Made by a program: the position numbers and the translations under genes. The notes under the pieces are model-generated. The model had not been told where the DNA came from. It worked only from the letters and a program-made list of their open reading frames with translations, and did no database searches. A stretch of DNA of 32,000 nt from Candidatus Saccharimonadota bacterium (GTDB lineage Bacteria; Patescibacteriota; Saccharimonadia; Saccharimonadales; UBA4665): contig CP064992.1 in the NCBI GenBank assembly GCA_016699935.1, positions 120,001-152,000 of the forward strand, written 5' to 3'. Below, piece by piece: positions 1,195 to 17,951 of this stretch (the stretch's first letter is position 1; every line of letters begins with the position of its first letter).

Positions 1195-2118
1195 CCTACT
1201 TTTTAGTGTGATTGTTTTCAAATCGCAACTACCGAATTTCAGCGAGGTTTTGGCCCGGGCCATCTACAAAAACAGCAACTATTTACCGAGAGTGACTTGC
1301 TAGAAGAATGGCGAGAAGAACGGCTGAACAAAACCAAGTCGAATCTTGTCGGTCAACTGATGCTTTTAACGGAGTAGTTTTGGCATCGGGTGCTGTATGT
1401 AGTTACCTACTAGCCAGACGAACGCTACGACCTGTCGAGGAAGCTATGGAAGCACAGTCGCGGTTCAGTAGTGATGCTGCCCATGAACTGCGTACCCCAC
1501 TGACCATCATGCAGTCTGAAATAGAAGTCGGGTTGCGCGATAAAAAAGCAACCAAACAGTCACATAACGAGCTCCTAGCAAGTAGCCTCGACGAGGTGCA
1601 GCGCATGCGTACGCTAACAGATCGCTTGCTACTGCTGGCCAACAACCATGATATGACCCTCCTGCCGACTAATCTAGAAAATGCTGCTATCGAAGCCGTA
1701 AATCATGCCATACCCTTTGGCTCAGGCAAAAAGATTCGTATCGAGAATAGCGTAGGCACTTTGCAAGTTATCGGGAACGCTGATAGCCTCATTGATGTAC
1801 TAGTTATACTGCTAGACAATGCCGTCAAATACAGCCCGGCGAAGTCTACCATCACTCTTTCGGCTAGCGCTAAAGGGCAAACACGCCGAGATGCGAATAA
1901 CTGATAGCGGCGTGGGAATAGCCCCGTCTGATTTACCACATATTTTCGACCGTTTTTACCGGGCAGATGCTTCACGCAGCGCCCAAAACATCGCCGGGCA
2001 TGGCCTGGGCCTATCTATCGCCAAACAAATAGTCACCGCTCACCATGGCCATATCAGTGCGCGACCAAACCATTCTGGCAAAGGCACCACTTTTACCCTC
2101 ACCCTCCCTCTGGCGTGA
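1124..2118 (+). CDS. Sensor histidine kinase, frame-interrupted (at least 3 frame changes)
   Basis: ATG 1124 gives MKHLFHSATLRLTAWYTLILLLISLLFS (TM) up to TAG 1301. Then come frames with LLEEWREERLNKTKSNLVGQLMLL, the H-box SSDAAHELRTPLT (ORF 1308-1904), and the HATPase_c end RFYRAD...[13 protein letters not shown]...[11 protein letters not shown] (ORF 1819-2118). Confidence 0.85.
1996..2108 (+). repeat. Direct repeat copy 1 (3' end of the histidine kinase gene)
   Basis: 113 nt, 109/113 identical to 3673-3785 by my manual alignment. Confidence 0.9.
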
Positions 2119-2130
2119 TACAATCGACTT

Positions 2131-3522
2131 ATGGATAAACACAAAAAGCGCGTCGACGGCCTATCAGAGCAAGTCAACTCGTTTTACGAGCAAAAAAAGC
2201 CATTCAAAATCTATCATGGCAGTACTAACTCCACGCGAGTCCAAGTCTTCAAACGAAATGAAATGCTCGACACAAGTGGCTTAAATCATGTGCTAAAGAT
2301 TGATCAAGCTAAAATGACCGCCCTAATAGAGCCAAATGTCCCCATGGACAAACTAGTTAAGGCAACACTGAAGTACGGCCTCATCCCACCTGTAGTCATG
2401 GAGTTCCCTGGTATCACTGCGGGAGGCGGGGTTCAGGGGGGGGCGGGTGAAAGCAGCTCTTATAAATGGGGATGTTTTCATCAAATTTGTAATGAATATG
2501 AAATGGTCATCGGTGATGGTACAATCGTGACTTGCAACCCACAGGAAAATAGCGACCTGTTTTACGGAACGGCCGGTTCGTATGGAACACTCGGCGTTAT
2601 GACTGCTGTTGAATTACGTCTCATCCCGGCAAAAAAATATGTACAACTAACCTATTTTCCAGTCAAAAGCTTCGATGCGGCAGTTAACCGTATGCAAAAA
2701 GAAGTGGCCAATAAACCCGATTTTATCGATGGCATCATGTTCGCCCGTGACCGTGGCGTCATCATGGTCGGTAAACTTAGCAATGAAAAGAATGGCCAAC
2801 TGACACGATTTAGTCGAGCTCGTGACGAGTGGTTTTCCCTAGATGCTGATAAAGAATCTCGAGGTGATGTCTTTAACAAAACAATTCCACTCTCCGACTA
2901 CCTTTTCCGCTACGATCGAGGTGCTTTTTGGGTCGGAAAGTATGCCTTCAAAGTATTCAATATTCCTTTTACAAAATTTTGGCGAACATCGCTGAACTGG
3001 TTGCTGCATACACGCAAACTCTATGAAGCTCTTCAAGAAAGTGGTATATCCCAGCATCATGTAGTGCAGGACTTGGCTCTACCCGTAGAGACTGCGGTGG
3101 AATTCATGAGCTTCGTTGACGATAACCTTGGCATATACCCCTATGGCTCTGTCCCCTCAAAACAGATAAGTCGTCGCCCTTCATTTCAAGTAATTTACTT
3201 GCACCGCTTGTTATCAACGTAGGTGTATGGGGTGAGTTTATTCCTGATTATGATGATTTTTTAAGAATAAATCGTTCAATTGAAACAAACTTGACCCGTA
3301 TGGGAGGCAAAAGTGGTTTTATGCTCACGCATACTACCCAGAGGAAGAATTCTGGAAAATATATCCAAAGAACCAGTACAAACTCCTCCGTAAAAATACA
3401 AATCGTTCTACCAGCCATCTATATATGACAAAGTTCGCGTCACGGATCGCTTTACCGTCGATACACACCGCGGATTATGGCGTACCATGCTTCGTACTTC
3501 CCGGCTTAGGATTGAGCCATGA
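2131..3522 (+). CDS. DHCR24/DWF1-like FAD-binding oxidoreductase (PCMH-type), frame-interrupted near the 3' end
   Basis: ORF 2131-3222 contains GESSSYKWGCFHQICNEYEMVIGDGTIVTCNPQENSDLFYG...GTLGVMTAVELRLIPAKKYV and HHVVQDLALPV. These closely parallel delta24-sterol-reductase family motifs. The C-terminus (INVGVWGEF..., EEFWKIYPKNQYKLLRKKY, IYDKVRV...RLRIEP) continues in other frames to TGA 3520-3522. Confidence 0.8.
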
Positions 3523-3795
3523 CCTGGCAAATGTATATTGCCGTTGCCGTGTTGGGGCTTTCGGTGGCGATTCTACGTCAGCGTGTTATATTACATCATC
3601 ACCGGTCGACACTGCCAAACAATCAGCGGAGCAAATGATACCAAAAACAGGCTGTCAAAATGTTTTAGAAACGGGCATGGCCTGGGACTATCCATCGCTA
3701 AACAAATAGTCACCGCTCACCATGGCCATATCAGTGCGCGACCAAACCTTTCTGGCAAAGGCACCACTTTTACCCTCACCCTCCCCTCGCCTAAC
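3519..3795 (+). pseudogene. Histidine-kinase remnant: a short TM-like start fused to a duplicated HATPase_c tail (contains repeat copy 2, 3673-3785)
   Basis: ATG 3519 overlaps the upstream stop (ATGA) and encodes [22 protein letters not shown]. 3673-3785 encodes [38 protein letters not shown], nearly identical to the end of the kinase at 1124-2118. No H-box or the rest of the catalytic domain lies between them. Confidence 0.7.
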
Positions 3796-3847
3796 GCAGT
3801 TTTCCGTACCAGCCCGCATACTAGTTGCAGCATGCTATGATACCCGC

Positions 3848-4663
3848 ATGACAAAACCGGGTAAAAATGGCGCTTTACAGGAATCGAGCAAATCCCAGGC
3901 GGATGGCTGCTCGCTTTCGTCATCAAACTAGGCTGGGCAGCCATATTCGGCGGACTCATGCTGGGGGCAATTATTCTCACCAAGTATGTTGAGCTGCCGT
4001 TGTTCGCTCGTTATGACTGGCTCTTTCTGTTTGCGGTTTTCATACAGCTCGCGCTGGTAGCGACCAAGCTTGAGAAACCGCATGAAGTAGTAACTATCCT
4101 TGTTTTTCACTTTGTGGGCTTAGGTATGGAATTGTTTAAAACATCACCTGGCATTGGCTCGTGGGATTACCCGGAAGTTGCTGTGTTTAAGATTGCTACA
4201 GTGCCCCTGTATTCGGGGTTTATGTATGCCGCTGTCGGTAGTTTTATCGCCCGCGCTTGGCGGGTACTGAACCTTGAGTATCGCCCATACCCAAAACGCC
4301 TTTATACCATCCTGCTGGCGGTGGCAATTTTATCTGAACTTTTTCACGCACCACTACGCCTACGACATTCGCTGGCTGCTGTTCGGCGCAACGGTTATGC
4401 TATATGGTCGCACCTGGACCTACTACACAGTGCACACCGTCGAACGACGCATTCCGTTTATCGTCACCGCCTTTTTGTCGGCGTTTTTTGTGTGGGTGGC
4501 CGAAAATATCGGTACGTTCACTAAAAGCTGGCTGTATCCTAATCAGGCAAATGAATGGCAGCTTGTCTCCATACACAAACTCGGCGCTTGGCTCCTCCTC
4601 ATGCTGATTAGCTTCATCATGATTGACCTCCTCCACTACTGCCGTACCCGCCGCAAAACTTAA
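3848..4663 (+). CDS. DUF817-family integral membrane protein, frame-interrupted
   Basis: Joined from the ATG 3848 start plus ORFs 3958-4524 and 4274-4663. These are hydrophobic multi-TM sequences (GWAAIFGGLMLGAIILTKY..., FVWVAENIGTFTKSWLYPNQ). The first shift maps to the A5 run at 3863-3867. Confidence 0.7.
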
Positions 4664-4751
4664 TTGAACAAACAAAAGAAGTCCATCACCTTCGTAACGA
4701 CTTCCTTTCGCTCGCCTTAAGACTGATTGTCTGATAAAATACGACCACTGC

Positions 4752-4828
4752 GCGCCCTTAGCTCAGCGGATTAGAGCGTCTGTCTTCGGAACAGAAGGTC
4801 GTAGGTTCGAATCCTGCAGGGCGTACCA
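4752..4828 (+). tRNA. tRNA-Arg (anticodon UCG), CCA encoded
   Basis: Manual cloverleaf. Acceptor GCGCCCT/AGGGCGT (G1-U72). D arm GCTC-AGCGGATTA-GAGC. Anticodon arm TCTGT-CTTCGGA-ACAGA (TCG at 34-36). T arm GTAGG-TTCGAAT-CCTGC. Then A-CCA. Confidence 0.95.
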
Positions 4829-4937
4829 TGTAAGATGCTCACCGCAAGGTGGGCATTTTGCATGGTTCGTGCAGTAGATTTAAGCCGGAGACCTGACAGC
4901 GTAAGCTGTTAGAAGTCTTCGAATCCTGCAGGGCGTA
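4823..4937. repeat. Left direct repeat of the island (starts in the tRNA 3' end, ends in a second copy of the tRNA T-loop/acceptor 3' strand)
   Basis: About 115 nt matching 9185-9301, with 3 substitutions and one 2-nt indel. 4918-4941 repeats 4806-4829 (ttcgaatcctgcagggcgtaccat) exactly. It contains hairpins 4835-4856 and 4887-4920 (14 bp with a 2-nt bulge, GTAA loop). Confidence 0.9.
4835..4860 (+). terminator. Rho-independent terminator-like hairpin after tRNA-Arg
   Basis: atgctcacc-GCAA-ggtgggcat (9 bp including one G-U), followed by tttt. Confidence 0.6.
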
Positions 4938-5460
4938 CCATTTCCCAGTTTTTGATAATGCGATGACCGCTTCAAACGGTTCCTTAAGTGTAAATTGCAG
5001 TTTTCACCGTCTAAAGTAGCGCTCGAAAGTATGAAGTCGATAAGGTAGCGTTTTTGCTCTAGTTTCGTACACTCAATGTCAAATAGTTCAACAGCACGGC
5101 TACATACGTCCAGCAAGTAGCTAGCACCAATAACAAATGACTTATCACCCGCACTGTGGTCATGCAAGTCATCAAGTAATTCTTTCTGACGCTTTTCAAT
5201 CTTTTTGACCATACGTTCAAATATTTCATAGCGGGATTTGAATTGCTTGCAGTCTTTGAATAAGTGCTCTAGTTCCTCATATAGCACGTCGAATTTTTCT
5301 GTAGGCGTGTTTTAGTATCAGTATAACGTTCTTGTTCAATGGCACGGTTCTTTTCAATTTCAATTACTAGGCTAGGTATTAGTTTCGTAGGTAGCTGGAT
5401 TGACTTTCATAACTGACGTATCTGGTTAATCAGGGTTTCTTCGTCGAGCCATACGGCACT
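4880..5460 (-). pseudogene. C-terminal fragment of a large serine recombinase-like integrase (decayed)
   Basis: ORF 4880-5287 reads ...SYLLDVCSRAVELFDIECTKLEQKRYLIDFILSSATLDGENCNLHL. The upstream frame reads VWLDEETLINQIRQL-TGA-KSIQLPTKL...IEIEKNRAIEQERYTDTKTRLQK. From memory this resembles the coiled-coil and C-terminal region of large serine recombinases. There is an in-frame TGA at 5407-5409 and a frame change at an A5 run near 5290, and no N-terminal catalytic domain was found. The 3' end abuts the tRNA-derived core repeat. Confidence 0.45.
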
Positions 5461-5948
5461 AAAGATGAGCCCGGCCGCTTACGCTGCCCAGCTCAGACGG
5501 AGCCCAAAGAGAATAGAAAGAGTGTTGCAGAAAGTTAGAGGTTGACGTTAGTGATAGTTGTAAATTTTCGAGAATTTCGAGGTCTACTTACTACAAGTAT
5601 CTAAAGACCGAACCACTGTTCGCAGATAGCATGGTTACCACACAGGACAACGCTAACAAGGTAAGTTTTAATTTTCGTACATATCCCTAGCTCAACTACT
5701 TTCCGTGTACATGATTTCACTAGAAGTGGTGTCAGATAAATGGCGTTAAAGGGTCAAAATCTGGGGAAAATTATATACAACGATGCTCATGACAAGAATT
5801 AGCATTTAGATGAATGGGTTTTATTTGCCTCTAGAAGATCGGAGAGGGGTCTAAATAGCGTTCCACGGCAGGAGTTGATAATGTTCTCATTACCTCTGTT
5901 CAAAGTAAAAGATTAGTCGATATTACTGTAGTATTATATACAATGTAC

Positions 5949-5977
5949 TTTACATAATGTGTGACATTGTGTAATAT
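5949..5977 (+). promoter_or_regulatory. Sigma70-like promoter upstream of the structured RNA and rsr operon
   Basis: TTTACA (5949-5954), 17-nt spacer, TAATAT (5972-5977). Predicted start is near 5984-5986. Confidence 0.5.
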
Positions 5978-5986
5978 AGCGTTGGG

Positions 5987-6047
5987 TAGTGAGAGATTGG
6001 ACTTCTTCGTTCTGAAAGCAAAAGCCGATCTCGCCTTTCTCCCACTA
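5987..6047 (+). other. Structured leader domain A (long-range stem)
   Basis: 5987-5996 (tagtgagaga) pairs with 6038-6047 (tctcccacta): 9 of 10 positions, with one A/C mismatch. Confidence 0.4.
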
Positions 6048-6050
6048 GTT

Positions 6051-6190
6051 CGTTAACAATGTTAGGACACAGTGATGATAGAACTTCCTCGTCTGTTAAA
6101 CGAGTGTTGGCCTTTTGGCCACACTGCTCTTGAGCCATTGCGGCTCAAGGGTTTGTTCTCTCAAGGTTTCTTGTCCTAACATTGTCAACG
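6051..6190 (+). ncRNA. Candidate Y-RNA-like structured RNA (long closing helix plus four-way junction) immediately upstream of rsr
   Basis: Closing helix 6051-6069/6172-6190: 18 Watson-Crick pairs and one A55/C86 mismatch. Internal loop, then stem 6076-6084/6155-6163 (8 of 9). This encloses three hairpins: 6088-6104 (5 bp, 7-nt loop ctgttaa), 6105-6123 (7 bp with a bulge, tttt loop), and 6127-6151 (10 bp including one G-U, 5-nt loop). Strand is uncertain (see findings). Confidence 0.55.
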
Positions 6191-6230
6191 AAAGTGGAGC
6201 TGCCCTCTAATTAATTTACACGGAGGAGTT

Positions 6231-7654
6231 ATGTCTCTTTTCAACAAATCAACTAAATCTAATGTTACTAACTTGGCTGGCGGTAGTGCTTATAAGCAGT
6301 CGCCTGAGAACACCTTAGTATCCATACTTTTAACCAACTTCTTAAAGAATCAGACTTACCGTTCCGGCACTGATGAACTGAAGTCGTTAAAAGATACAAT
6401 AGCGCAGAACGATCCATTGTTTGCAGCTAAAGCAGGTGTGTACGCTCGTAATGAGTTTGGAATGAGGTCCGTAAGTCATGTGCTTGCAGGTGAGCTTGCT
6501 CATATTGTTAAGGGCGAGGCATGGTCTAAGCAGTTCTACGATAAGGTAGTACATCGTCCTGATGACATTACCGAAATTGTTGCTTACTACATGCAAGAGT
6601 ATGGCAAGCCATTACCTAATTCACTTAAAAGGGCTTAGCAAAGTCTTTCGATAAGTTTGATGCCTATCAGCTTGCTAAATATCGAGGCAAGACCAATAAG
6701 ATTTCACTTGTTGACGTTGTCAATTTGGTTCGACCGCGACCAAGCGAGAAAAATAGCGATGCCCTCAAAGCTCTGGTTAATGACGAGTTACGTTCTGAGA
6801 ACACTTGGGAAGCGCGGATTTCTGCTGCTGGTCAAGATACTGAAAAGCGTCGCCTGGTATGGAAAGACCTGCTTGAGACAAACAAATTAGGTTACTTTGC
6901 CTTACTACGCAACCTGCGTAACATCATGACCGATGCACCAGACATGGTAGCTCTAGTGTGCGAGCAGCTGGTAGATGAAAAGCGAATTAAAGGCTCACTC
7001 GTTTTACCTTTCCGCTTTACTTCAGCCATTAAGGAAATCTCTCAGATACCTGAGTCACGCGACGTTATTTCTGCTCTATCTAAGGCTGTCGATATTTCAG
7101 CTCAGAATTGTCCAGAGTTGGACGGCTCAACACTAATTGCTGTAGATACGTCAGGCTCGATGTCTGGTCGTCCATCAGAAATTGCAACTTTGTTTGCAGC
7201 CATGCTGTATAAGAAGAATAGTAAAGCAGACCTGCTACTATTCGACACAGAGTCGCATCCTCTGACACCTAACCCTAACGACTCAGTGATGTCAATTGCA
7301 CAGTCGATGCCATTCCACGGTGGCGGTACAGATTTCAACATCATCTTCGACTACGCACAGAAAGCCTACGATCGAATCATCATACTATCAGACATGCAAG
7401 CATGGTCTGATCAGGGTATGTATGGTTGGTCACAAGGTGGTGGCAATCCTAAGGCTGCATTAGCTGCTTACCGTGACCGTACGGGAGCCGAACCTAAAAT
7501 CTACTCGTTTGATTTACAGGGTTACGGTACGCTTGAGTTTCCTGAGAAGAATGTCTACAGCCTTGCTGGATTTTCTGATAAGGTATTCGACCTCATCAAA
7601 ATTCTCGAAACTGGTAAGAGTATGGTTGACGTTATCAACCAAGTGGAGCTTTAA
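6231..7654 (+). CDS. rsr: Ro60-related protein (TROVE domain plus vWA/MIDAS), single frame interruption
   Basis: ORFs 6231-6638 and 6725-7654 join as ...PLPNSLK / KGLAKSFDKFDAYQLAKYRGKTNKISLVDVVNLVRPRP across the A4/G3 run at 6625-6632. TROVE-like N-terminus: NLAGGSAYK, DPLFAAKAGVYARNEFGMR. vWA MIDAS: LIAVDTSGSMSG. RBS ggagg at 6221-6225. Confidence 0.9.
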
Positions 7655-7657
7655 GTC

Positions 7658-7891
7658 ATGAAGCGAGTGACATTCTATTTAGATGACGATGAATATCGAC
7701 AACTGAAGATCGTACTCGCTATTCATGGCATGAGTGCAAGTGAATGGCTACGTCATGAAATATCACGATATGTTCGTGGTTCAATGCCAAACCTACCCGT
7801 TGATCAACTAGCACGAATGCCACGCATACCCAAAAAACAAAATCGCCCTGTTAAGCCTGATGACTTTGACGAAGACGTTGATTTACAATAG
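7658..7891 (+). CDS. Ribbon-helix-helix (CopG/Arc-like) small DNA-binding protein
   Basis: 77 aa. KRVTFYLDDDEYRQLKIVLAIHGMSASEWLRHEISRYV fits the beta-strand/helix/helix pattern. It starts 3 nt after the rsr stop and ends 19 nt before the rtcB ATG. Confidence 0.7.
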   Translation: MKRVTFYLDDDEYRQLKIVLAIHGMSASEWLRHEISRYVRGSMPNLPVDQLARMPRIPKKQNRPVKPDDFDEDVDLQ

Positions 7892-7910
7892 AACTTGAGG
7901 ATAAATTAAT

Positions 7911-9083
7911 ATGAAGAAAATCACAAAGAAACTATACAACTGGGCTTCTATAATTGACGAAGCCACTAGAGAACAAGCAGAACGAACATCAAAAATGCCG
8001 TTCGTGCTGCCACATCTAGCTTTGATGCCAGACGCACACATGGGAGCTGGTGCAACGGTTGGTTCAGTTATCCCTACAGTCGGTGCGATTATGCCAGCAG
8101 CAGTTGGTGTAGATATTGGCTGTGGAATGATTGCAGTCAAAACACAATTCACTACTAAGGACGTTGGCGATAAAGAATTGTCTGTTTTAAGACACAGTAT
8201 CGAACGCTCTATTCCACTATCGGCCGGTAAGTTTAACGATGCCCTAACGGATTCAGTCAAGCCACGTATTGCTAAGCTAGAAAAAATGGCTGGTAAGCGA
8301 AAAAGCTTCTATGACGGTCTGACCCGTACGAGCTGGACCTTACAATTAGGAACGCTTGGTTCGGGTAATCATTTTATTGAAGTAACAGTGGACGAAGACG
8401 AAACAATATGGCTGTTCTTACACAGTGGTAGTCGTGGTATCGGTAACTCTATTGCCACACACCACATTAAGATAGCTCAAGAATGCATGAAGAAGTGGTA
8501 CATCAATCTTGAAGATGAAGATTTAGCATATTTGGTTGAGGGAACACCAGAGTTTGACCAATACATATTTGACCTTAATTGGGCACAGCACTTCGCACTC
8601 TTGAATCGTGAAGAGATGATGGACAGAGTGGTTAAAGACTTCGAACATTTTATTGGTTCAAAAGTTGTTGAAAAGGAACGTATAAATTGCCATCACAATT
8701 TCACGCAAAAAGAGAATCACATGGGTCGCAAGGTATGGCTGAGTCGAAAAGGTGCTATACAAGCCGATATAGGTCGTAAAGGTTTAATTCCTGGCTCGAT
8801 GGGTACGGCAAGCTATGTTGTTGAGGGTAAGGGCTATGCACCGTCTTATAACTCCGCCCCGCATGGCGCAGGACGTGTTTGGGCTAGACGAGCCGCATCA
8901 AATCACTTTACGATTGAAGACCTAGATAAAGCTATGGTTGGTATCGAATACAATCGATCCGAGGCATTTTTAGATGAAATACCTGCTGCCTATAAGGATA
9001 TTGATGTGGTGATTGAAGACGCTAAAGAGTTAGTTAAGGTCAAGCACACATTCCATCAGATTGTGAATGTTAAAGGCGACTAA
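7911..9083 (+). CDS. rtcB: RNA 3'-phosphate ligase RtcB
   Basis: 390 aa with RtcB hallmark motifs: PDAHMGAGATVGSV, GSGNHFIE, HSGSRGIG, CHHNF, PGSMGTASY, APHGAGR. RBS gagga sits upstream. Confidence 0.95.
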   Translation: MKKITKKLYNWASIIDEATREQAERTSKMPFVLPHLALMPDAHMGAGATVGSVIPTVGAIMPAAVGVDIGCGMIAVKTQFTTKDVGDKELSVLRHSIERSIPLSAGKFNDALTDSVKPRIAKLEKMAGKRKSFYDGLTRTSWTLQLGTLGSGNHFIEVTVDEDETIWLFLHSGSRGIGNSIATHHIKIAQECMKKWYINLEDEDLAYLVEGTPEFDQYIFDLNWAQHFALLNREEMMDRVVKDFEHFIGSKVVEKERINCHHNFTQKENHMGRKVWLSRKGAIQADIGRKGLIPGSMGTASYVVEGKGYAPSYNSAPHGAGRVWARRAASNHFTIEDLDKAMVGIEYNRSEAFLDEIPAAYKDIDVVIEDAKELVKVKHTFHQIVNVKGD

Positions 9084-9184
9084 AAATCATCAAACATTAT
9101 TGGTATACGTGGTGGTTGGCTTTTTAATAGAGCGATTGAACTATTATAAGCGAGAAACAGTGACCTAACCTGCTCTATAATGCT

Positions 9185-9301
9185 GTACCATGTAAGATGC
9201 TCACCGCAAGGTGGGCATTTTGCATGGTTCGTGCAAGGTAGATTTAAGCCGGAGACCTGACAGCGTAAGCTGTTAGCATTCTTCGAATCCTGCCGGGCGT
9301 A
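9185..9301. repeat. Right direct repeat of the island (diverged third copy of the tRNA 3' end at its end)
   Basis: Matches 4823-4937. It ends ...cttcgaatcctgcCgggcgtaGG, compared with ...cctgcagggcgtacca in the tRNA. Confidence 0.9.
9197..9221 (+). terminator. Terminator-like hairpin within the right repeat (likely ends the rsr-RHH-rtcB transcript)
   Basis: Same atgctcacc-GCAA-ggtgggcat hairpin followed by tttt. No other hairpin was seen between the rtcB stop and this point. Confidence 0.55.
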
Positions 9302-9340
9302 GGTATTATCCACAGGTTTTCCACACCATATAATGCTCGT

Positions 9341-9473
9341 GCTTGCAATGGTTTGTGAGCCGGAGTAGACTAGTAAATACCATCGTTGAGGTGGTCACGG
9401 CCGCAAGGCAGTGTGCGGCAACCAGCAATGGGAACCGCATGAAAAAAGTCCGTCGCAAGACGGACTTTTCATT
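9341..9473 (+). ncRNA. Candidate small RNA (promoter-to-terminator unit), unknown family
   Basis: TATAAT at 9329-9334, with a weak -35 ttatcc at 9306-9311. About 130 nt then run to a strong terminator at 9442-9473. Internal stems include gccgca/tgcggc. The only ORF (9343-9525) reads through two terminators. Confidence 0.3.
9442..9473. terminator. Bidirectional rho-independent terminator
   Basis: aaaagtccgtc-GCAA-gacggactttt, with an A-run before and a T-run after. Confidence 0.8.
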
Positions 9474-9482
9474 TATCAATAG

Positions 9483-9514
9483 CAAAAATATAAGCGCCCA
9501 CAAGGAGCGCTTAT
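9483..9514 (-). terminator. hsp20 terminator
   Basis: On the minus strand: ataagcgc(t)cc-ttgt-gggcgcttat followed by attttt, directly after the hsp20 stop. Confidence 0.7.
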
Positions 9515-9532
9515 ATATACTTTAACCAGTTA

Positions 9533-9954
9533 TTACTTTTTCTTGATAGCGATTTTCTTGGGTGCTGGCAACTCTTTAAAAGGCACAATAACCTTTAGCA
9601 CGCCGTCTTTCATATCACCAGTTATCTTGTCGACATCAGCTACCTTGGGTAGCTGCAAGCGGCGGTAAAAACTACTACTGCTTTCACGTACGACGTACTT
9701 TTTGCTCTTGTCTTTCTCTTGTTCGTGTTTTTCGGCAGAAATCACAAGTGCGTTACCATCGACATGGACGTCGACGTCTTTGTCCTCAAAGTTTGGCAAA
9801 TGTGCCTCGACTACTAGTTGCTTATCGTCTTCCGTATAGACATCTGTGGTCGGTAGTTGCATTCGTTTGGTTGGCATCAGCCAATCGTCCCCAAAAAACT
9901 TCGCTGCATGGCTTGTAGCTGGCTAAAGGGGTCGTAGGTTACTAAGTCACTCAT
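9533..9954 (-). CDS. Small heat-shock protein (Hsp20/alpha-crystallin), one frame interruption
   Basis: ORF 9533-9877 carries the alpha-crystallin domain: VVEAHLPNFEDKDVDVHVDGNALVISAEK...FYRRLQLP...GVLKVIVP. The N-terminus MSDLVTYDPFSQLQAMQRSF starts at ATG 9954 after the RBS aggaggg. The shift lies in the T6/G4 run (plus-strand 9889-9898). Confidence 0.9.
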
Positions 9955-10015
9955 AGGTTATCCCTCCTTTTATGATTAATATCCGTTGGAAATTACCACT
10001 GTAATTTCCACTTTT

Positions 10016-10055
10016 AGTATACCTCTTCTGGCACTCTCGTGTCAAAGAGTGCCAA
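10016..10055 (-). promoter_or_regulatory. hsp20 promoter overlapped by a CIRCE-like inverted repeat
   Basis: Minus strand: TTGACA (10045-10040), 18-nt spacer, TATACT (10021-10016). The inverted repeat TTGGCACTC-N10-GAGTGCCAG (10028-10055) resembles the CIRCE consensus TTAGCACTC-N9-GAGTGCTAA. Confidence 0.55.
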
Positions 10056-10058
10056 TTA

Positions 10059-10570
10059 TCACAATCGGCTGTGGGCATACACTTCAAATGTGTAGTTTGG
10101 CTCCCCAGTTTTCGGTTTGCCAGGTTCACTTGATAGTAGTTGAAAATCCTGCAGGCGTTGCATAGGATAGAATTTGTCGCAGTCGTAGTTGGCATGAATC
10201 CGCGTGATGTATATCTCATCTGGCTCAACATCATCGTGAATACTGCCGTTCCATACATTTTTGCCGGCTGCTGCCATATCTGCTAGAAAATCTTTCAGCG
10301 AATGGACGATAGTAACGCCCGCTTCATCTGGTAAATCATGGGATGTCAGCACATACAGGTGCCTCCCAGCTGGAGGCCAAGCACTCTGACCTTCACGTTC
10401 CTGAAGCCCTTTTTCATTGCCTGGTACGTACCCCGGCCAATTAGCAGGTTTCCGCCAAAACGCCTGCTCTGTTCGTGAAAGTACGCTAAATCTTCCGGAA
10501 TAAACCATGGTGTCATGCCGTCCTTCGCCATACCACCCATCTCGTCAACAGCCACGATGTCTCGTATCAT
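10059..10570 (-). CDS. folA: Dihydrofolate reductase-like protein, frame-interrupted
   Basis: ORF 10346-10570 reads MIRDIVAVDEMGGMAKDGMTPWFIPEDLAYF...LLIGRGTY. ORF 10059-10508 reads GRHLYVLTS...DEIYITRIHANYDCDKFYP. Order and motifs fit the DHFR fold. Confidence 0.7.
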
Positions 10571-11836
10571 CGCAATTCCTGGTTCGCTTCCCTTAGTTGG
10601 GCGATCAGGAAAAACGAACCGGTAATAACGCCGACATTCTGAACTTGCTTCATGAAAACTGCATAAGCCTCGTCTTGATTAGCAACTAGGCGACATTTCA
10701 CCCCATTTGCCTTTAGTACGCTGACGATTTCACTTGGATCCATGGAAACGATGGGTAAATCCTGCGTTTTCGAGAATGTAGTCACTATTACTTCATCAGC
10801 ATGCTTTGCAAGCAAGGGTGCGATGTCTGCTATTTCTTTCCCCTGTTTGAGAGCGAATAAAACAACCGGGCGTACACCTTTATGTAGTTCGGCAAAACTT
10901 TGCCAAAAAGCCGTCATTTTCTGGCCATTATGCGCCCCCGTCCATAATGACAGTTTTACCTTCTATCGAGCGTATGTCCATCCGTCCTGGCACGTGCACT
11001 GCTTGCGTTTTTGCAACTGTGTCGCATTTAACACTTTTAAATCATCGCGACGAGCTAGCCATTTGTAAGCAGCGTAAGCTAGCAGCCAGTTGCGTTTCTG
11101 GTAATCAGGCATGCCGGCTGGGAATTCACCGCCGTAGGCTTTGGCCAGTCTATCCTGATCAAACGTTAGCAAGTCGGCTCCTTCTTGTTGGCTAACCCAG
11201 AAACGAACCACCTGCATATTCTCTGAGTCTTGAGAGTACATGAGCGCCGTGTTGCCCTCGTGGATAATACCGGCTTTTGGTAAGCTATTTTGCCCAGCGT
11301 GTCGCCAAGCGCTTCCATATGATCATAGCCAATGTCGGTTATGACGCACAGTTTATCAGCGCGCGCCGCTACATTTGTGCTGTCATCTAGCCCGCCCATG
11401 CCGGTCTCGATGACTGCGTAGTCCACATTTTCTTGCTTGAAGACCCAGTAGGCAAAAGCAATCAGCACTTCGAAGCGGCTGGGGTCTCGGGCGTACCTGC
11501 CAGTAACTGTGTGAACTCTTCAAAATATTTGCAGAACTGTTCTTCTGACAAAGGCACACTGTTTATCTGTATGCGCTCATTCATACTGTCGATGTATGGC
11601 GAAATGGTTGACCCGACCTTGCAGCCAGCTGCCGTGAGTAGTGCCGATATATAGTAGGTTGTCGATGTTTTGCCGCTCGTACCAGCTATGTGTACTACCC
11701 GAAGCGCCTTTTCGGGGTGGCCGATATGCGCCATCAGCCGCTCTGTCCGCCCGAGGGTGATGTGCTTGCCGACAGTATGTTTTGATACTGCATCATAGGG
11801 GCGCAGCGCCTTTTCAACCTCAGCAATAGTAGTCAT
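10567..11836 (-). CDS. folC: Folylpolyglutamate synthase/dihydrofolate synthase (Mur-ligase family), fragmented into 4 ORFs
   Basis: Start MTTIAEVEKAL at 11836. P-loop HIAGTSGKTSTT. VIETGMGGLDDSTNV. ITDIGYDHMEALGDTLGKIA. C-terminal ORF 10567-10917. The pieces are 11462-11836, 11166-11468, 10963-11241 and 10567-10917. Confidence 0.8.
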
Positions 11837-11892
11837 TTTCACCCCACTACCATACCACACCTCTGTTAAACGTGCTATAATCCACCTGGTAA

Positions 11893-11969
11893 GCGCGCGT
11901 AGCTCAGCTGGATAGAGCGTTGGTTTCCGGTACCAAAGGTCGGGGTTCAAATCCCTTCGCGCGTACCAT
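11893..11969 (+). tRNA. tRNA-Arg (anticodon CCG), CCA encoded
   Basis: Acceptor GCGCGCG/CGCGCGT (G1-U72). D arm GCTC-AGCTGGATA-GAGC. Anticodon arm TTGGT-TTCCGGT-ACCAA (CCG). T-loop TTCAAAT. Then A-CCA. Confidence 0.9.
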
Positions 11970-12004
11970 TTTGCGATTTGTTTAATCTGTTCTACTATAG
12001 CTGC

Positions 12005-12762
12005 ATGTCAAATGTTGAGTGGCTGAAGGAGGTGCGCGAAGCGGCCGGGTACCCTAGTGCACCGTTCCCTGAGGAACGGAGCTGGGAGAGCGTGCCATAC
12101 GATTACATTCCAACGAAGTTTGTTTCAGACGAGGTGAGGATAAAACCTTGGTACACGGAAACGCCGGACTTTGCACACTGTTTCCGCAGAATATGCGCCA
12201 TGCAAACTAAAGGTTTCTGGCTGCCGCCCAGTGTTGTCGAAAAACCCCAACGGAATCCATACGGTGCCACGGGTATCACTGGTCATGGGGCGTTCTGGGA
12301 TCTGGGAGCTAACCAAGCACAAGTCTGGTGGTAATACATGACCACGATATAGCATTGGCAAAAACAGTCGATGGGCGTCTTGTATTGCCTGGTGGTATGG
12401 CTGAATACGGCAAGGATCGTGTCGTACCTGAAGAAGCGACAATTACGGCTGCGCGCGAAGCTTGTGAGGAGCTTGGGCTATGTCTTTCACCCAAAACCCT
12501 GCAGCCAATGGCTACAATATCCGGAGAACACCCATGGAATACAGATGATGCTTTTGCTATTGATACACCATTTATACTCGACTTAACGCAATTATGTGAT
12601 ACCAGACCAAGTTTAGTATCTAATGCGCCTGGCGAGATACAAGAAGCCTTTTGGATGCCAATGTCCGATATAGCCTATGCAGTCCCCCTTAGCGACTATC
12701 ATCGCACACTCGTAGATATGGCTACCAGGCACCTCGGAGTCGCAGTCACGGTTATTATATAG
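12005..12762 (+). CDS. NUDT9-like Nudix hydrolase (ADP-ribose pyrophosphatase family), one frame interruption
   Basis: ORF 11978-12334 contains RNPYGATGITGHGAFWDLGANQA (NUDT9-type motif). ORF 12328-12762 contains the Nudix box LPGGMAEYG...TITAAREACEELG. The junction is near 12325. Confidence 0.75.
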
Positions 12763-16304: not shown

Positions 16305-17951
16305 TTAGGGCTTCACCTTATTCCGCAGTGGTCGAAGATATTGGCGCAGAATAACTGCCTTCTTTTCGCCAACCACTTTGGCGAGCTCCCAGTCACGTGC
16401 CTGCATAACACCGCGCATACTGCCGAAAGTTTTGAGCAGTTTTTTGCGTGTAGCTGGGCCGATGGTGGGAATATCGTCTAGCAGGCTAGCTGTTTGCTGT
16501 TTCACCTTCAGTGTCGAATGGTAGCTTACGGCAAAACGATGCGACTCATCGCGGATGCGCTGTAATAGTTTAACAAGATTAGTATTGTGCGGTAGGTTCA
16601 CCAAAATGAAATCATCTGTCTCAGTCGTGTAACCCCCTAGCTTATGCAGCATCTCCGTGTTAAGAGTCACATTTGATCCGGCACTGTCATCTTGAGCGGA
16701 GGGAACCAAAGCCGAAAGATCCTTTCTAGGTACTAAAGAAGATTCTTCGACTTCGCTCAGAATGACCCGATCCGAAATCAGTGATTTCTTTATAACTATC
16801 TGCTCCTCCCTTTTAGCCAGCCCAATCATCCGCAGCTTGCTCAAGGACAGTCCTTGAGCACCAAGTCTGATAGAGATTTCGTTGCGGGCGCGGATGGCGG
16901 CGTCTAGCTGCCCTTTGCCGCCGTCTATCAGTAGAAGATCGGGCATACCCCAAGCCTTAATATTTTTCTCGCTCAAGCGACGAGTTATGGTTTCGTTCAT
17001 ATTGTAGAAGTCATCGTTTTGCTGGCGCGACATTTTGAATTTGCGGTATTGCCCCTTGTCGCTCACTCCATTGGTGAAAACGACCATACTCGCAACTACA
17101 TTAGTACCCTGCATATGTGATATGTCAAAACCCTCTATACGGCGTGGATATTTTTCTAAGCCGAGTAAATCTACCAGTTCGGTGAGTGCGTGATCTTTGG
17201 AAATATCCAGGAACTCTTTGTCGCTGAAAATGACCTGTTTGCCAAGGTTCTGGAGTGCGAGCATTTGGTTTCGCAACTTCTGCTGCGAGCTCAAAATTTT
17301 GCGATTTGCTCGCAATTTTCATTTCTTTTTCCACCTGGCGAATAATCTTATCACGCTTGCCTTCGATGACGGCAATGAGCTTACGCAAATTTGCCCGATA
17401 CTCCGACAGATTCGTCTTGCCCTCCTCTAACCCGGGGTCTAGACCAAGATGATAATACAAGCTAACGCGTTTTTGCCCAGTTGGCTTGGAATAGGCAAAT
17501 GGAAAGATACGCCGCAGGAGCTTCAGTGCTTGACGCACACTAAAGGTGCTAAAGTACGGTCCATAGTAGCGCGCACCATCGTCGAGCGGCCGTCGCGTAG
17601 TACTCACCGTGGGGTATTCGCTGTCATAATCTATGCGTATGTAGTAGCTCATGGCTTTATCGTCGCGAAGCAAGATGTTGTAGCGCGGCATGTAGCGACG
17701 AATCATTTCAGCCTCAAGAAAAAGTGCCTCGAGCTCGCTCTCCACTTCCATCCAGTCGGTGTCTGCTATCTCGGCAACCAGTGCTTCTGTTTTGGGATCG
17801 CGCCCCGGCTCGCCTGAAAATACTGCCGCACCCGATTCCGCAGCACTGCCGCCTTCCCCACATAAATAATCTCTCCCGCCACATCCTTATGAAAATACAC
17901 CCCCGGGGTTTTGGGTAGAGTCTTTAGTTTATTTATGAGTATGGTTTTCAC
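16305..17951 (-). CDS. uvrC: Excinuclease ABC subunit C, frame-interrupted, with in-frame palindromic insertions
   Basis: GIY-YIG N-terminus: [33 protein letters not shown] (ORF 17766-18020). Middle part: ORF 17125-17751. C-terminal nuclease/HhH: [52 protein letters not shown] (ORF 16305-17315). Confidence 0.9.
16686..16766. repeat. 81-nt inverted-repeat-bounded hairpin module inside the uvrC ORF
   Basis: gtcatcttgagcg (16686-16698) pairs with cgctcagaatgac (16754-16766): 11 WC pairs, 1 G-U, 1 mismatch. Inner hairpin gaaag-atc-ctttc (16714-16726). Translated in-frame as ...[31 protein letters not shown]... Confidence 0.6.
16840..16860. repeat. 21-nt perfect palindrome inside the uvrC ORF, sharing its core with the hairpin at 31043-31084
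   Basis: gctcaagga-cag-tccttgagc. The 16-nt string ggacagtccttgagca recurs at 31059-31074. Confidence 0.7.

What the first reader, a model, noticed from the sequence alone, without database searches (positions are those of the whole stretch)
5949..6230. Promoter-driven, highly structured RNA (19-position closing helix plus four-way junction) directly upstream of the Ro60 gene: candidate Y-RNA-like partner
A TTTACA-17-TATAAT-like promoter (5949-5977) would start a ~245-nt leader. It folds on inspection into domain A (5987-5996/6038-6047) and domain B (6051-6190). Domain B has a closing helix of 18 Watson-Crick pairs with one mismatch, then a 6x8 internal loop, a 9-position stem, and three hairpins radiating from a junction. 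Known Ro60 orthologs bind Y RNAs through a long helix formed by the 5' and 3' ends, and bacterial Y RNAs are typically encoded next to rsr. Some (YrlA class) carry a tRNA-like multi-helix module. The first hairpin (5-bp stem, 7-nt loop CUGUUAA with U at loop position 2 and A at position 6) looks like an anticodon arm. Strand evidence conflicts. The A55/C86 mismatch would be a G-U pair on the minus strand, but the G-U pair in hairpin 6127-6151 would become A/C there. The promoter and co-orientation favour plus.
Basis: partly seen in the sequence, partly recalled or inferred. Interest (0 to 1): 0.85.

Follow-up and report, generated by a model that had tools for sequence, protein, structure and literature searches.

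The report
Two Y-like RNAs before Ro60 gene
The structured RNA is real and conserved, and it looks like two divergent bacterial Y RNAs (the usual RNA partners of the Ro60 protein) fused into the leader of the Ro60/RNA-repair operon of a Saccharimonadales (candidate phyla radiation, CPR) bacterium; it extends a known system and is not a new kind.

Summary
Window 5984-6205 (+) folds far better than shuffles (z -6.2). It sits behind a conserved sigma70-like promoter. It recurs directly upstream of every close Ro60 homolog found, in 9 distinct sequences that include Candidatus Saccharimonadales MAGs. In the consensus structure 98% of cells pair, and 11 pairs show compensatory changes against 4.0±1.4 in shuffles. 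Conserved G-U pairs fix the plus strand.

The Y-RNA reading is supported, but the anatomy needs correcting. Rfam's YrlA model finds nothing here, although it does find YrlA next to other Ro60 genes. Ro60 relatives at about 55% identity, on phage-like contigs, carry tandem Y RNAs that share one terminal module: P1, a bulged pyrimidine, AG/CU, an internal loop, P2, then UUACUUCG, with UUUUCU-CC on the 3' side. A descriptor of the module matches exactly twice in the window, at 5983-6044 and 6066-6175.

Domain B lines up with YrlA-like RNAs hairpin for hairpin (V hairpin, T-arm position, acceptor-like hairpin). It lacks the D arm, and only one relative keeps a true T-loop. Ro60 binding, processing and a possible conformational switch are inferred, not shown. 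My verdict is a new variant of a known kind, of moderate interest.

The parts
5949..5977 (+). Sigma70-like promoter: -35 TTTACA (5949-5954), 17-nt spacer, -10 TAATAT (5972-5977). Predicted transcription start near G5984.
   Evidence: Found by the consensus scan. Conserved in all relatives with sequence upstream of the RNA. The start site is inferred from spacing only.
5932..5978 (.). Operator-like inverted repeats over the promoter: arms 5932-5946 and 5964-5978, plus the imperfect palindrome TTACATAATGTG-T-GACATTGTGTAA (5950-5974).
   Evidence: Inverted-repeat finder. The palindrome TACATAAnGTG.CACnTTATGTA is conserved in relatives. A role as the binding site of the downstream RHH protein is inference.
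5983..6044 (+). P1 is 5984-5986 with 6041-6043, plus U5983-A6044. U5987 is bulged. A5988-G5989 pair with C6039-U6040. P2 is 5993-6000 with 6025-6032. The apical loop contains ACUUCUUCG. The 3' internal loop is GCCUUU (6033-6038).
   Evidence: Best hit in the whole window to CM R1, which was built only from Y RNAs of other Ro60 loci: 22.6 bits, E 4.6e-5. Top nhmmer hit, E 0.022. Descriptor match. P2 has 3 pairs with compensatory changes.
6049..6192 (+). Domain B. A 21-position closing stem (6049-6069 with 6172-6192, one conserved mismatch A6055/C6186) encloses module B.
   Evidence: MFE and consensus folds. 100% of cells pair, 3 pairs show compensatory changes and 19 of 23 pairs are invariant. 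At the DNA level it is more conserved than the rsr coding sequence.
6066..6175 (+). Module B, a degenerate YrlA-like Y module. P1 is GACA 6066-6069 with UGUC 6172-6175. C6070 is bulged. A6071-G6072 pair with C6170-U6171. The internal loop is 6073-6079 opposite 6160-6169. P2 is AGAAC 6080-6084 with GUUCU 6155-6159.
   Evidence: Second of exactly two descriptor matches in the window. Second-best nhmmer and CM hits start here. Collinear with YrlA-like RNAs of L139, L140 and L141.
6088..6104 (+). Hairpin 1 (CUCGU-CUGUUAA-ACGAG). It corresponds to the YrlA variable (V) arm, not an anticodon arm.
   Evidence: Alignment A4. The loop is 5-9 nt in relatives. The CUUCC...ACGAG motif is shared with the Rfam-detected YrlA of Gordonia phage Neville.
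6105..6125 (+). Hairpin 2, at the position of the YrlA T arm. In the window it has a plain UUUU loop.
   Evidence: In relative L010 the same position is a perfect T arm, GCUGGUUCGAAUCCAGU.
6126..6152 (+). Hairpin 3, acceptor-stem-like (AS): 11 bp followed by UUUGUUCU.
   Evidence: Compensatory changes in the consensus fold. Flagged as terminator-like by the scan. Aligns with the AS hairpins of YrlA-like RNAs.
6042..6046 (+). 5' strand of helix PJ (CCACU), which pairs with 6193-6197 (AGUGG). It overlaps the 3' strand of module A's P1, so the two helices are mutually exclusive.
   Evidence: 3 of 5 pairs show compensatory changes and 91% of cells pair.
6193..6205 (+). 3' strands of PJ (6193-6197) and of the long-range closing helix P1L (GCUGCCC 6199-6205, which pairs with GGGUAGU 5984-5990).
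   Evidence: Consensus fold. P1L pairs in 98% of cells, with C-G, U-G and U-A at one position. Predicted pair probability is 0.86. The covariation for P1L alone is weak.
6222..6228 (+). Shine-Dalgarno sequence GGAGGAG of rsr, 16 nt downstream of P1L. There is no terminator between the RNA and the gene.
   Evidence: Read directly from the sequence. Conserved in relatives. No terminator-like site after 6152.
6231..7654 (+). rsr, the Ro60-like gene (TROVE plus vWA domains). It is split by a 1-nt deletion in the A-run 6627-6630 (A4 here, A5 in L003).
   Evidence: Pfam TROVE and vWA_Ro60. The repaired protein is 96% identical to the intact 474-aa P0001. Homopolymer comparison.
7658..7891 (+). 77-aa ORF conserved between rsr and the RNA ligase. 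It is probably a ribbon-helix-helix protein.
   Evidence: Present in most loci that extend past rsr. Weak Pfam NikA-like/RHH match, E 0.002. L139 has an RHH_1 ORF in the same place.
7911..9083 (+). RtcB RNA ligase.
   Evidence: Pfam RtcB, E 8e-116. NCBIfam RtcB family.

Best explanation
The leader of the rsr-RHH-rtcB operon encodes two tandem Y-RNA-like modules. They are homologous to the Ro60-binding stems of bacterial and phage Y RNAs (YrlA/YrlB type).

Module A (5983-6044) is a small hairpin Y RNA. Module B (core 6066-6175) is a YrlA derivative. It keeps the V, T-position and acceptor-like hairpins, has lost the D arm and, in this genome, the T-loop, and has gained a 20-bp, sequence-conserved extension of its terminal stem (6049-6069 with 6172-6192).

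Proposed mechanism:
1. The conserved promoter starts transcription at about G5984.
2. The 222-nt RNA folds co-transcriptionally.
3. The divergent Ro60 encoded just downstream binds the bulged-pyrimidine helix of each module (P1-[Y]-AG/CU plus the adjoining internal loop).
4. The RNAs either stay part of the mRNA leader or are cut out of it, as YrlA and YrlB are cut from a single precursor upstream of rsr in Mycobacterium smegmatis.
5. They act as the Ro60 partner RNAs of an RNA-repair or RNA-quality-control cassette.

Shown here, computationally: the promoter, the structure, the covariation, the strand, the two module matches, the collinearity with YrlA, and invariable linkage to rsr.

Inferred: Ro60 binding, processing, and any effector tethering by the apical hairpins.
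For: - Real, conserved structure: z -6.2; 98% of cells paired and 11 compensatory pairs against 4.0±1.4 in shuffles.
- The RNA cores are more conserved at DNA level than rsr itself (74-98% and 86-98% against 69-93%), while the apical hairpins drift (54-57% in the more distant relatives, 71-99% in the closer ones).
- The RNA is always 25-35 nt upstream of rsr on the same strand, in different genomic neighbourhoods.
- Ro60 relatives at about 55% identity have 2-4 tandem Y RNAs upstream, all with one module signature. Two of these get weak matches, below the gathering score, to Rfam YrlA; one aligns over the full model, P1 and P2 included.
- CM R1 was built from 12 of those modules and none from the window clade. 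Its best hit in the 32-kb window is 5983-6044 (+), 22.6 bits, E 4.6e-5. Its second hit begins at 6066.
- The same model hits module A in all relatives that retain it, at 22.6-36.9 bits.
- In 730 kb of unrelated genomes its only hits above 17 bits are two further Saccharimonadales copies of this locus.
- A 5'-half HMM ranks 5985-6009 first and 6070-6091 second.
- A structural descriptor matches exactly twice in the window, at 5983-6044 and 6066-6175. Expectation is 0.39 per window in shuffles and 13 hits in 1.76 Mb of background.
- Domain B aligns hairpin for hairpin with YrlA-like RNAs, and L010 carries a perfect T arm at hairpin 2.
- Published precedent: Y RNAs lie within 4 kb of rsr on the same strand. 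[quoted passage not shown] Each studied species has at least 2 Y RNAs, one of them a simple hairpin (PMC4201824).
Against: - Rfam YrlA (RF02553) gives no hit in the window at E<=5-10, or in any close relative.
- The published GNCGAAN0-1G motif is absent from the 5' end.
- The window copy has no T-loop and no D arm.
- No terminator or obvious processing site separates the RNA from the rsr Shine-Dalgarno sequence, so a purely cis-acting leader is possible.
- In the minimum-energy fold, module A's terminal helix is replaced by the long-range helices P1L and PJ.
- In L008 module A is degenerate while domain B is intact.
- I wrote the descriptor after seeing the window, so its count is not fully independent.
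- R1 E-values are rough.
- The rsr gene is frameshifted in this assembly.
- No binding or expression data exist.
Confidence: 0.68

Rival explanations
1. The element is a purely cis-acting regulatory leader, such as a protein-binding or conformational switch that controls rsr-rtcB expression. It would not be a source of trans-acting Y RNAs. Ro60 or another factor would bind the leader and change translation or stability of its own mRNA.
For: - Only about 16 nt and no terminator lie between the closing helix and the Shine-Dalgarno sequence.
- There are two mutually exclusive pairings: module A's terminal helix, or P1L plus PJ. They differ by 4.7 kcal/mol.
- Both partners of A/G6044 covary with it.
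- The CCCUCU that follows P1L can pair with GGAGG of the Shine-Dalgarno sequence once P1L opens.
Against: - The same module occurs in free-standing tandem Y RNAs, several hundred nt from any start codon, in related loci.
- The anti-Shine-Dalgarno complementarity is not conserved in L010 and L012.
- Known Y RNAs are also co-transcribed with rsr and then processed (PMC4201824).
- This reading does not exclude the best explanation. Both roles could coexist.
Confidence: 0.17
2. The element is a transcription attenuator. Hairpin 3 (6126-6152) plus the U-rich tract would act as an intrinsic terminator inside the leader, and the rest of the structure would decide between read-through and termination.
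For: The terminator scan flags 6126-6152 followed by TTTGTTCT. A GC-rich hairpin followed by UUGUUCU recurs in relatives.
Against: - The U tract is interrupted. It coincides with the conserved 3' strand of P2 and the internal loop of module B, which explains its conservation.
- The sequence downstream of the hairpin covaries with upstream partners. That requires full-length transcripts.
- One such site is close to the chance expectation of 0.7 in shuffles.
Confidence: 0.05
3. The element is a tRNA-like RNA with a functional anticodon-arm mimic.
For: In the window, hairpin 1 has a 5-bp stem and a 7-nt loop CUGUUAA, with U at position 2 and A at position 6.
Against: - Loop length is 5-9 nt and the sequence varies among relatives.
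- The hairpin aligns with the variable arm of YrlA-like RNAs.
- Neither ARAGORN nor Rfam finds a tRNA or tRNA-like hit here.
Confidence: 0.03
4. There is no functional RNA. The signal would come from a chance fold, a DNA-level inverted repeat, a minus-strand transcript, or the 62-aa minus-strand ORF 5950-6138.
For: The minus strand folds about as well in isolation, z -6.5. An ORF is listed at 5950-6138 on the minus strand.
Against: - Conserved G-U pairs exist only on the plus strand (32 of 444 cells) and there are compensatory changes.
- The conserved promoter faces the plus direction.
- Relatives differ by 1-nt and other non-triplet indels inside the putative ORF.
- The family model hits the plus strand only.
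Confidence: 0.02

Closest known systems
YrlA (Rfam RF02553), the tRNA-like bacterial and phage Y RNA (Chen et al. 2014, PMC4201824; Wang et al. 2018, bioRxiv 10.1101/312249)
   Same: - It is encoded next to rsr on the same strand.
- Its terminal stem is formed by the 5' and 3' ends, with P1, an internal loop, P2 and then a YUAY-type motif. Relatives L006 and L010 have CUAC here, and the 55% clade has UUAC.
- The order V hairpin, T position, acceptor-like hairpin is the same.
- A long acceptor-like stem has been reported for some cyanobacterial YrlAs.
- A CUUCC...ACGAG motif before the T position is shared with the Rfam-detected YrlA of Gordonia phage Neville.
   Different: - There is no Rfam hit at all.
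- There is no GNCGAAN0-1G motif. The 5' strand reads GG[Y]AGUGA instead.
- There is no D arm.
- The T-loop is replaced by a plain loop in the window.
- The terminal stem is extended by about 20 conserved bp.
- The RNA is embedded in the mRNA leader and fused to a second module.
YrlB / Yrn2-type Y RNAs (simple hairpin Y RNAs of Salmonella, M. smegmatis and D. radiodurans)
   Same: Module A is a short hairpin Y-like RNA (about 62 nt) without a tRNA-like domain. It is encoded in tandem with a larger Y RNA upstream of rsr, as in M. smegmatis, where YrlA and YrlB come from one precursor.
   Different: No sequence relationship was tested, because no YrlB model was available. Module A comes first, not second. 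Its terminal helix competes with a long-range helix.
D. radiodurans Yrn1
   Same: It is a Y RNA encoded upstream of rsr that has a T arm but no full D arm, so it is only partly tRNA-like.
   Different: Yrn1 retains a pseudouridylated T-loop and the Ro-binding sequence shared with animal Y RNAs. The window RNA has neither.
Tandem Y RNAs of the ~55%-identity Ro60 clade on phage-like contigs (L139-L142, L002, L001)
   Same: The terminal module signature is identical: P1, bulged Y, AG/CU, UGAGA-type loop, P2, and UUUUCU on the 3' side. They are arranged in tandem directly upstream of Ro60.
   Different: Those RNAs are separate units with spacers between them. Most carry genuine T and D arms, either in YrlA order or as a near-complete tRNA body. 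None has the 20-bp stem extension or the enclosing long-range helix.

Membership tests
YrlA (Rfam RF02553) | Match to the Rfam covariance model (gathering score 69 bits) | tested here: not met
   No YrlA hit in window 5600-6400 at E<=10 or 1500-12500 at E<=5, and none in the close relatives. Positive controls work: Gordonia phage Neville 44 bits, L141 32 bits and L140 34 bits.
YrlA (Chen et al. 2014 definition) | Encoded within 4 kb of the Ro60 ortholog on the same strand | tested here: met
   The RNA ends 25 nt before the rsr start codon on the plus strand, in the window and in all relatives.
YrlA (Chen et al. 2014 definition) | GNCGAAN0-1G motif near the 5' end | tested here: not met
   The 5' ends read GGGUAGUGAGAG (module A) and GACACAGUGAUG (module B). 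Only AACGAAAG occurs, and it is on the 3' strand of the long stem. The Rfam alignment places the clade's G[Y]AGUGA where YrlA has CGAAUGC.
YrlA (Chen et al. 2014 definition) | Conserved T arm with a tRNA-type T-loop | tested here: not met
   Hairpin 2 in the window has a UUUU loop. A perfect GCUGGUUCGAAUCCAGU occurs at that position only in L010.
YrlA (Chen et al. 2014 definition) | Conserved D arm after the acceptor-like hairpin | tested here: not met
   Alignment A4 has a gap where L139, L140 and L141 have the D arm.
YrlA (Chen et al. 2014 definition) | Order V arm, T arm, closed acceptor-like stem inside a stem formed by the 5' and 3' ends | tested here: met
   Domain B is collinear with YrlA-like RNAs in A4. 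The structure is supported by covariation.
Bacterial Y RNA in the broad sense (Ro60-bound ncRNA) | Terminal module shared with the Y RNAs of related Ro60 loci | tested here: met
   CM R1, trained without the window clade, gives 5983-6044 at 22.6 bits, E 4.6e-5, top hit. The descriptor matches twice. Specificity was checked on 730 kb.
Bacterial Y RNA in the broad sense (Ro60-bound ncRNA) | Physical binding by Ro60/Rsr and Ro60-dependent accumulation | not testable with these tools
   Needs RIP/CLIP, EMSA or northern blots in an rsr mutant.
tRNA | Cloverleaf recognised by ARAGORN or Rfam RF00005 | tested here: not met
   The only tRNAs in the window are tRNA-Arg at 4752-4828 and 11893-11968.
Ro60/Rsr protein (partner gene) | TROVE ring domain plus vWA domain | tested here: met
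   Pfam TROVE at 50.8 and 22.5 bits on the two halves, vWA_Ro60 at 29.1 bits. It is far from the NCBIfam Rsr equivalog, 17 bits against a cutoff of 900, so it belongs to a divergent subfamily.

The most novel reading that the evidence does not exclude
The fused double-Y leader is a Ro60-sensing switch. The 5' strand GGG[U]AG (5984-5989) has two alternative partners. One is the proximal 3' half of module A (6039-6043), which forms the Ro60-binding bulged helix. The other is the distal GCUGCCC (6199-6205), which together with PJ closes the whole 222-nt RNA. Ro60 occupancy of module A would then decide one of two things: whether the segment next to the Shine-Dalgarno sequence is free, giving autoregulation of rsr-RHH-rtcB; or whether the long stem is presented for cleavage that releases the Y RNAs. 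That would be a Y RNA acting in cis on its own operon, which has not been described.
Probability: 0.2. Interest if true: 0.65.

Novelty: new variant of a known kind. Interest (0 to 1): 0.45.

Why it matters
Bacterial Y RNAs have been characterised in three species and are catalogued by one Rfam model built around a tRNA-like core. This locus shows that a divergent Ro60 subfamily uses Y RNAs with a different terminal motif. The subfamily occurs in Candidatus Saccharimonadales (CPR bacteria with very small genomes) and on related phage-like contigs. Current models miss its RNAs completely.

Within one lineage the tRNA-like domain is being lost: the D arm is gone and the T-loop survives in one relative only. 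This gives a natural series for asking what the tRNA mimicry is for. It also supplies a compact, testable Ro60-binding motif: a bulged pyrimidine followed by AG/CU.

The cassette (promoter, Y RNAs, rsr, RHH, then RtcB or a Pnkp-like enzyme) sits in different genomic neighbourhoods. That fits a mobile RNA-repair module. The finding would mostly interest Ro60/Y-RNA and RNA-repair specialists.

Tried and rejected
Searches that gave little or nothing:
- blastn of 5600-7700 against the phage records found no match.
- The pattern ATTGTCAACGAANNNGGRGC was too loose for genome contigs. Nearly all 119 hits were chance, for example the Tex coding sequence in Leptolyngbya. Only L041 and L104, both Saccharimonadales, were real. 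The same pattern found nothing in viral contigs.
- The single metagenome-contig scan was lost to a tool error, so no broad survey of Ro60 loci was possible.
- The HMM of the module's 3' half is low-complexity and uninformative; the site scored E 96.
- CM R1 cannot bridge the roughly 70-nt apical insert of module B. It therefore pairs the 5' half of module B with a nearby decoy. I used the descriptor for module B instead.
- PADLOC found no known defence-system membership for Ro60, the RHH ORF or RtcB.

Ideas considered and dropped:
- Cyanobacterial origin. There is no HIP1 site, and UvrC is closest to Saccharimonadales.
- ACAATGT as a shared operator and RNA motif. It is enriched in the window but its promoter copies are not conserved in relatives.
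- Kink-turn or C/D-box reading of GUGAUGA, prompted by a weak snoR14 hit (E 1.2). There is no matching GA on the 3' strand.
- Anti-Shine-Dalgarno pairing by CUUUCUCC or CCCUCU. It is not conserved in L010 and L012.
Relatives do not support it.
Full report
**1. The observation**

A TTTACA-17-TAATAT promoter lies at 5949-5977. RNA 5980-6230 (+) folds to -94.4 kcal/mol against -66.3±4.5 for 200 dinucleotide shuffles, z -6.2, with none as good. The fold has these parts:
- a small 5' hairpin domain;
- an asymmetric internal loop;
- a second stem;
- three hairpins at 6088-6104, about 6105-6125, and 6126-6152.

The minus strand folds equally well in isolation (z -6.5). A single sequence therefore cannot decide the strand.

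**2. The neighbourhood**

Downstream lies a TROVE plus vWA (Ro60-like) gene at 6231-7654. Next come a 77-aa ORF at 7658-7891 with a weak ribbon-helix-helix match, and RtcB at 7911-9083.

The Ro60 gene is split by a frameshift. The cause is an A-run of four at 6627-6630 where relative L003 has five. The repaired protein is 96% identical to an intact 474-aa protein. Other genes in the window are also split, including UvrC, a histidine kinase and DUF817. Assembly indels are therefore as likely as a true pseudogene.

The window is chromosomal, not phage. Its UvrC is closest (70-76%) to Candidatus Saccharimonadales/Saccharibacteria proteins. Two contigs that carry the same RNA and rsr are titled Candidatus Saccharimonadales MAGs. 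There is no HIP1 site, which was one of the two grounds, with the UvrC matches, on which I dropped my first guess of a cyanobacterium.

**3. Conservation and covariation**

Nine Ro60 proteins at 77-96% identity were traced to contigs. Every contig with enough upstream sequence carries the same promoter and RNA, ending 25-35 nt before the start codon. The neighbouring genes differ from contig to contig: terminase and recombinase, ABC transporter, RHS, CofD and others. Downstream, the RNA ligase is either RtcB or a Pnkp-like kinase-phosphatase-ligase.

On alignment A1 (9 distinct sequences) the consensus fold has 63 pairs, 18 of them with compensatory changes. I restricted the count to the well-aligned core (51 pairs). 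There 98.0% of cells pair, and 11 pairs change on both sides. Shuffles give 4.0±1.4 (0 of 500 reach 11), and slid partners give 0-1.

Thirty-two of 444 cells are G-U, including pairs conserved in 8/8 and 8/9 sequences. These would be A-C on the minus strand. The A/C mismatch column reads A, U or C opposite C. The RNA is therefore on the plus strand, and the minus-strand ORF is spurious, because relatives differ by non-triplet indels.

At the DNA level the RNA cores are more conserved than rsr: 74-98% and 86-98% against 69-93%. The apical hairpins drift to 54-57% in the more distant relatives.

**4. Is it a known RNA?**

Rfam 15 gives nothing here at gathering score. It also gives no YrlA or Y_RNA match at E<=10 (5600-6400), at E<=5 (1500-12500), or in the relatives.

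The control works. RF02553 YrlA is found just upstream of the Ro gene of Gordonia phage Neville at 44 bits, E 3.6e-7. It is found more weakly in two loci of the next Ro60 clade. The window RNA is therefore not a recognisable YrlA.

**5. The link to Y RNAs**

Ro60 proteins at about 55% identity sit on phage-like contigs (L139-L142). Ro60 proteins at 49-52% identity sit on a 635-kb uncultured phage (L001) and an IMG/VR contig (L002). Upstream of each of L139-L142 lie two to four tandem small RNAs; L001 and L002 each show one. All of them share one terminal module:
- a 4-5 bp helix P1;
- one bulged pyrimidine;
- A-G paired to C-U;
- an internal loop, 5' UGAGA-like and 3' ...UUUU;
- helix P2;
- then UUAC(U/A)UCG.

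Their apical parts differ. Some are plain hairpins. Some carry T, acceptor-like and D arms in YrlA order. Some carry an almost complete tRNA body.

Rfam's YrlA model aligns over its full length to one of these RNAs, L141 2583-2714. In that alignment YrlA's P1, internal loop, P2 and CUAc fall on this signature. The signature is therefore this Ro60 clade's version of the YrlA Ro60-binding stem.

**6. The window carries that module twice**

All the tests below used models built from RNAs outside the window clade.
- An HMM of the 5' half, from 12 RNAs, ranks 5985-6009 (+) first (E 0.022) and 6070-6091 (+) second (E 1.4) in the whole window on both strands.
- Covariance model R1, from the same 12 modules, has its best window hit at 5983-6044 (+): 22.6 bits, E 4.6e-5. 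Its second hit starts at 6066.
- R1 also hits module A of all relatives that retain it, at 22.6-36.9 bits.
- In 730 kb of unrelated genomes R1's only hits above 17 bits are two more Saccharimonadales copies of this locus.
- A structural descriptor (P1, Y, AGURA, P2, [AU]U[UC]CU, P1') matches exactly twice in the window, at 5983-6044 and 6066-6175, both on the plus strand. Shuffles give 0.39 per window. Background gives 13 hits in 1.76 Mb. The descriptor finds two modules upstream of rsr in every complete relative. I wrote it after seeing the window, so it is supporting evidence, not independent evidence.

**7. Anatomy, corrected**

It is a complete small Y-like hairpin.

Domain B is a second Y module (core 6066-6175). 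Its terminal helix is extended by about 20 conserved base pairs.

Alignment A4 shows domain B collinear with YrlA-like RNAs:
- hairpin 1 is the variable arm;
- hairpin 2 sits at the T-arm position, and L010 has a perfect GCUGGUUCGAAUCCAGU there;
- hairpin 3 is the closed acceptor-like stem;
- the D arm is missing.

The CUUCC...ACGAG motif before the T position also occurs in the Rfam-detected YrlA of phage Neville. The "anticodon arm" resemblance is confined to the window and its closest relatives, because the loop is 5-9 nt across the family.

**8. An unexplained extra**

In the minimum-energy and consensus folds the 5' strand GGGUAGU (5984-5990) pairs with GCUGCCC (6199-6205). CCACU (6042-6046) pairs with AGUGG (6193-6197). 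Together these enclose both modules. These helices exclude module A's own terminal helix.

The two conformations differ by 4.7 kcal/mol: -95.3 against -90.6. PJ has three compensatory pairs. P1L has only C-G, U-G and U-A variation at one position, which is weak.

A/G6044 covaries with both of its alternative partners. This could reflect a Ro60-dependent switch or a processing intermediate. I rate that at 0.2.

Anti-Shine-Dalgarno pairing of the released segment is possible in the window, but it is not conserved in L010 and L012.

**9. Comparison with what is known**

Chen et al. 2014 (PMC4201824) report the following:
- Y RNAs lie within 4 kb of rsr on the same strand.
- Each studied species has at least two of them, one tRNA-like and one a hairpin.
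- M. smegmatis YrlA and YrlB lie upstream of rsr in one precursor.
- D. radiodurans Yrn1 lacks a full D arm.
- Some cyanobacterial YrlAs have long acceptor-like stems.

The window fits that pattern functionally. It fails the membership tests for YrlA: the Rfam model, the GNCGAA motif, the T-loop and the D arm.

The protein is likewise a divergent Ro60, scoring 17 bits against the NCBIfam Rsr cutoff of 900. I found no paper on Ro60 or Y RNAs in Saccharibacteria.

**10. Verdict**

This is a real, conserved, plus-strand structured RNA. It is best explained as two fused, divergent Y-RNA-like partners of the adjacent Ro60 (confidence about 0.68).

The main rival is a purely cis-acting leader (about 0.17). 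That reading could also coexist with the first.

It is a new variant of a known kind. The divergent motif, the decay of tRNA mimicry, the CPR host and the possible switch are the points worth following.

Noticed in passing
window 6620-6640: The Ro60 gene is frameshifted. The A-run 6627-6630 has 4 A's where L003 has 5, giving a TAG stop at 6636-6638. All close homologs are intact at 474-476 aa.
   Followed up: yes
window 16305-17751; 1308-2284; 3958-4663: Several other genes look split by frameshifts. UvrC appears as two overlapping ORFs, while homologs are 510-560 aa. A histidine kinase and DUF817 are also affected. This suggests homopolymer indel errors in the assembly, or widespread pseudogenisation.
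   Followed up: partly
window 7658-7891: A conserved 77-aa ORF (weak RHH/NikA-like match) lies between rsr and the RNA ligase in most relatives whose contigs extend past rsr. L139 has a 50-aa RHH_1 ORF in the same place. It is a candidate repressor of the operon.
   Followed up: partly
window 5932-5978: Inverted repeats overlap the promoter: 5932-5946 with 5964-5978, and the palindrome at 5950-5974. The palindrome TACATAAnGTG.CACnTTATGTA between -35 and -10 is conserved in relatives. This is operator-like.
   Followed up: partly
L010 3860-3880 (GCA_017884145.1 contig): One relative has a perfect tRNA T arm (GCUGGUUCGAAUCCAGU) at hairpin 2 of domain B. All other members have unrelated hairpins there.
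   Followed up: yes
L142 2677-2803; L139 2858-2987: In the ~55% Ro60 clade some Y modules enclose an almost complete tRNA body in normal order (D arm, anticodon-like arm, T arm). Rfam tRNA scores 55 and 47 bits over model positions 4-67 and 6-65. This is not the permuted T/acceptor/D order of YrlA. L142's loop reads CUCAUAA.
   Followed up: partly
L140 1-2204; L139 74-1667: The phage-like contigs carry large tRNA gene arrays (about 25 in L140) directly upstream of the tandem Y RNAs and Ro60.
   Followed up: no
L003 3809-4435; L009/L010/L012 downstream of rsr: The cassette varies. RtcB is followed by a LigT-like 2',5' RNA ligase/2H phosphoesterase in L003. RtcB is replaced by a Pnkp-like AAA_33 + Metallophos + RNA_lig_T4_1 protein in L009, L010 and L012 and, judging from a truncated AAA_33 ORF, L017. 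The flanking genes differ in every locus, which suggests a mobile RNA-repair module.
   Followed up: partly
L008 3875-3937: In this relative module A is degenerate: UUUUCUCCC has become CUUACAGCC and P2 is weakened. Domain B and the long-range helix are intact and Ro60 is intact.
   Followed up: partly
window 4752-4828 and 11893-11968: Two tRNA-Arg genes (anticodons UCG and CCG) flank the rsr-rtcB cassette on the same strand, about 1.2 kb upstream and 2.8 kb downstream.
   Followed up: no
window 5940-6185: The heptamer ACAATGT/ACATTGT occurs four times within 250 nt, twice at the promoter and twice in the long stem. There are 11 in the window against 5.3 expected. The promoter copies are not conserved in relatives, so this is probably coincidence.
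   Followed up: yes
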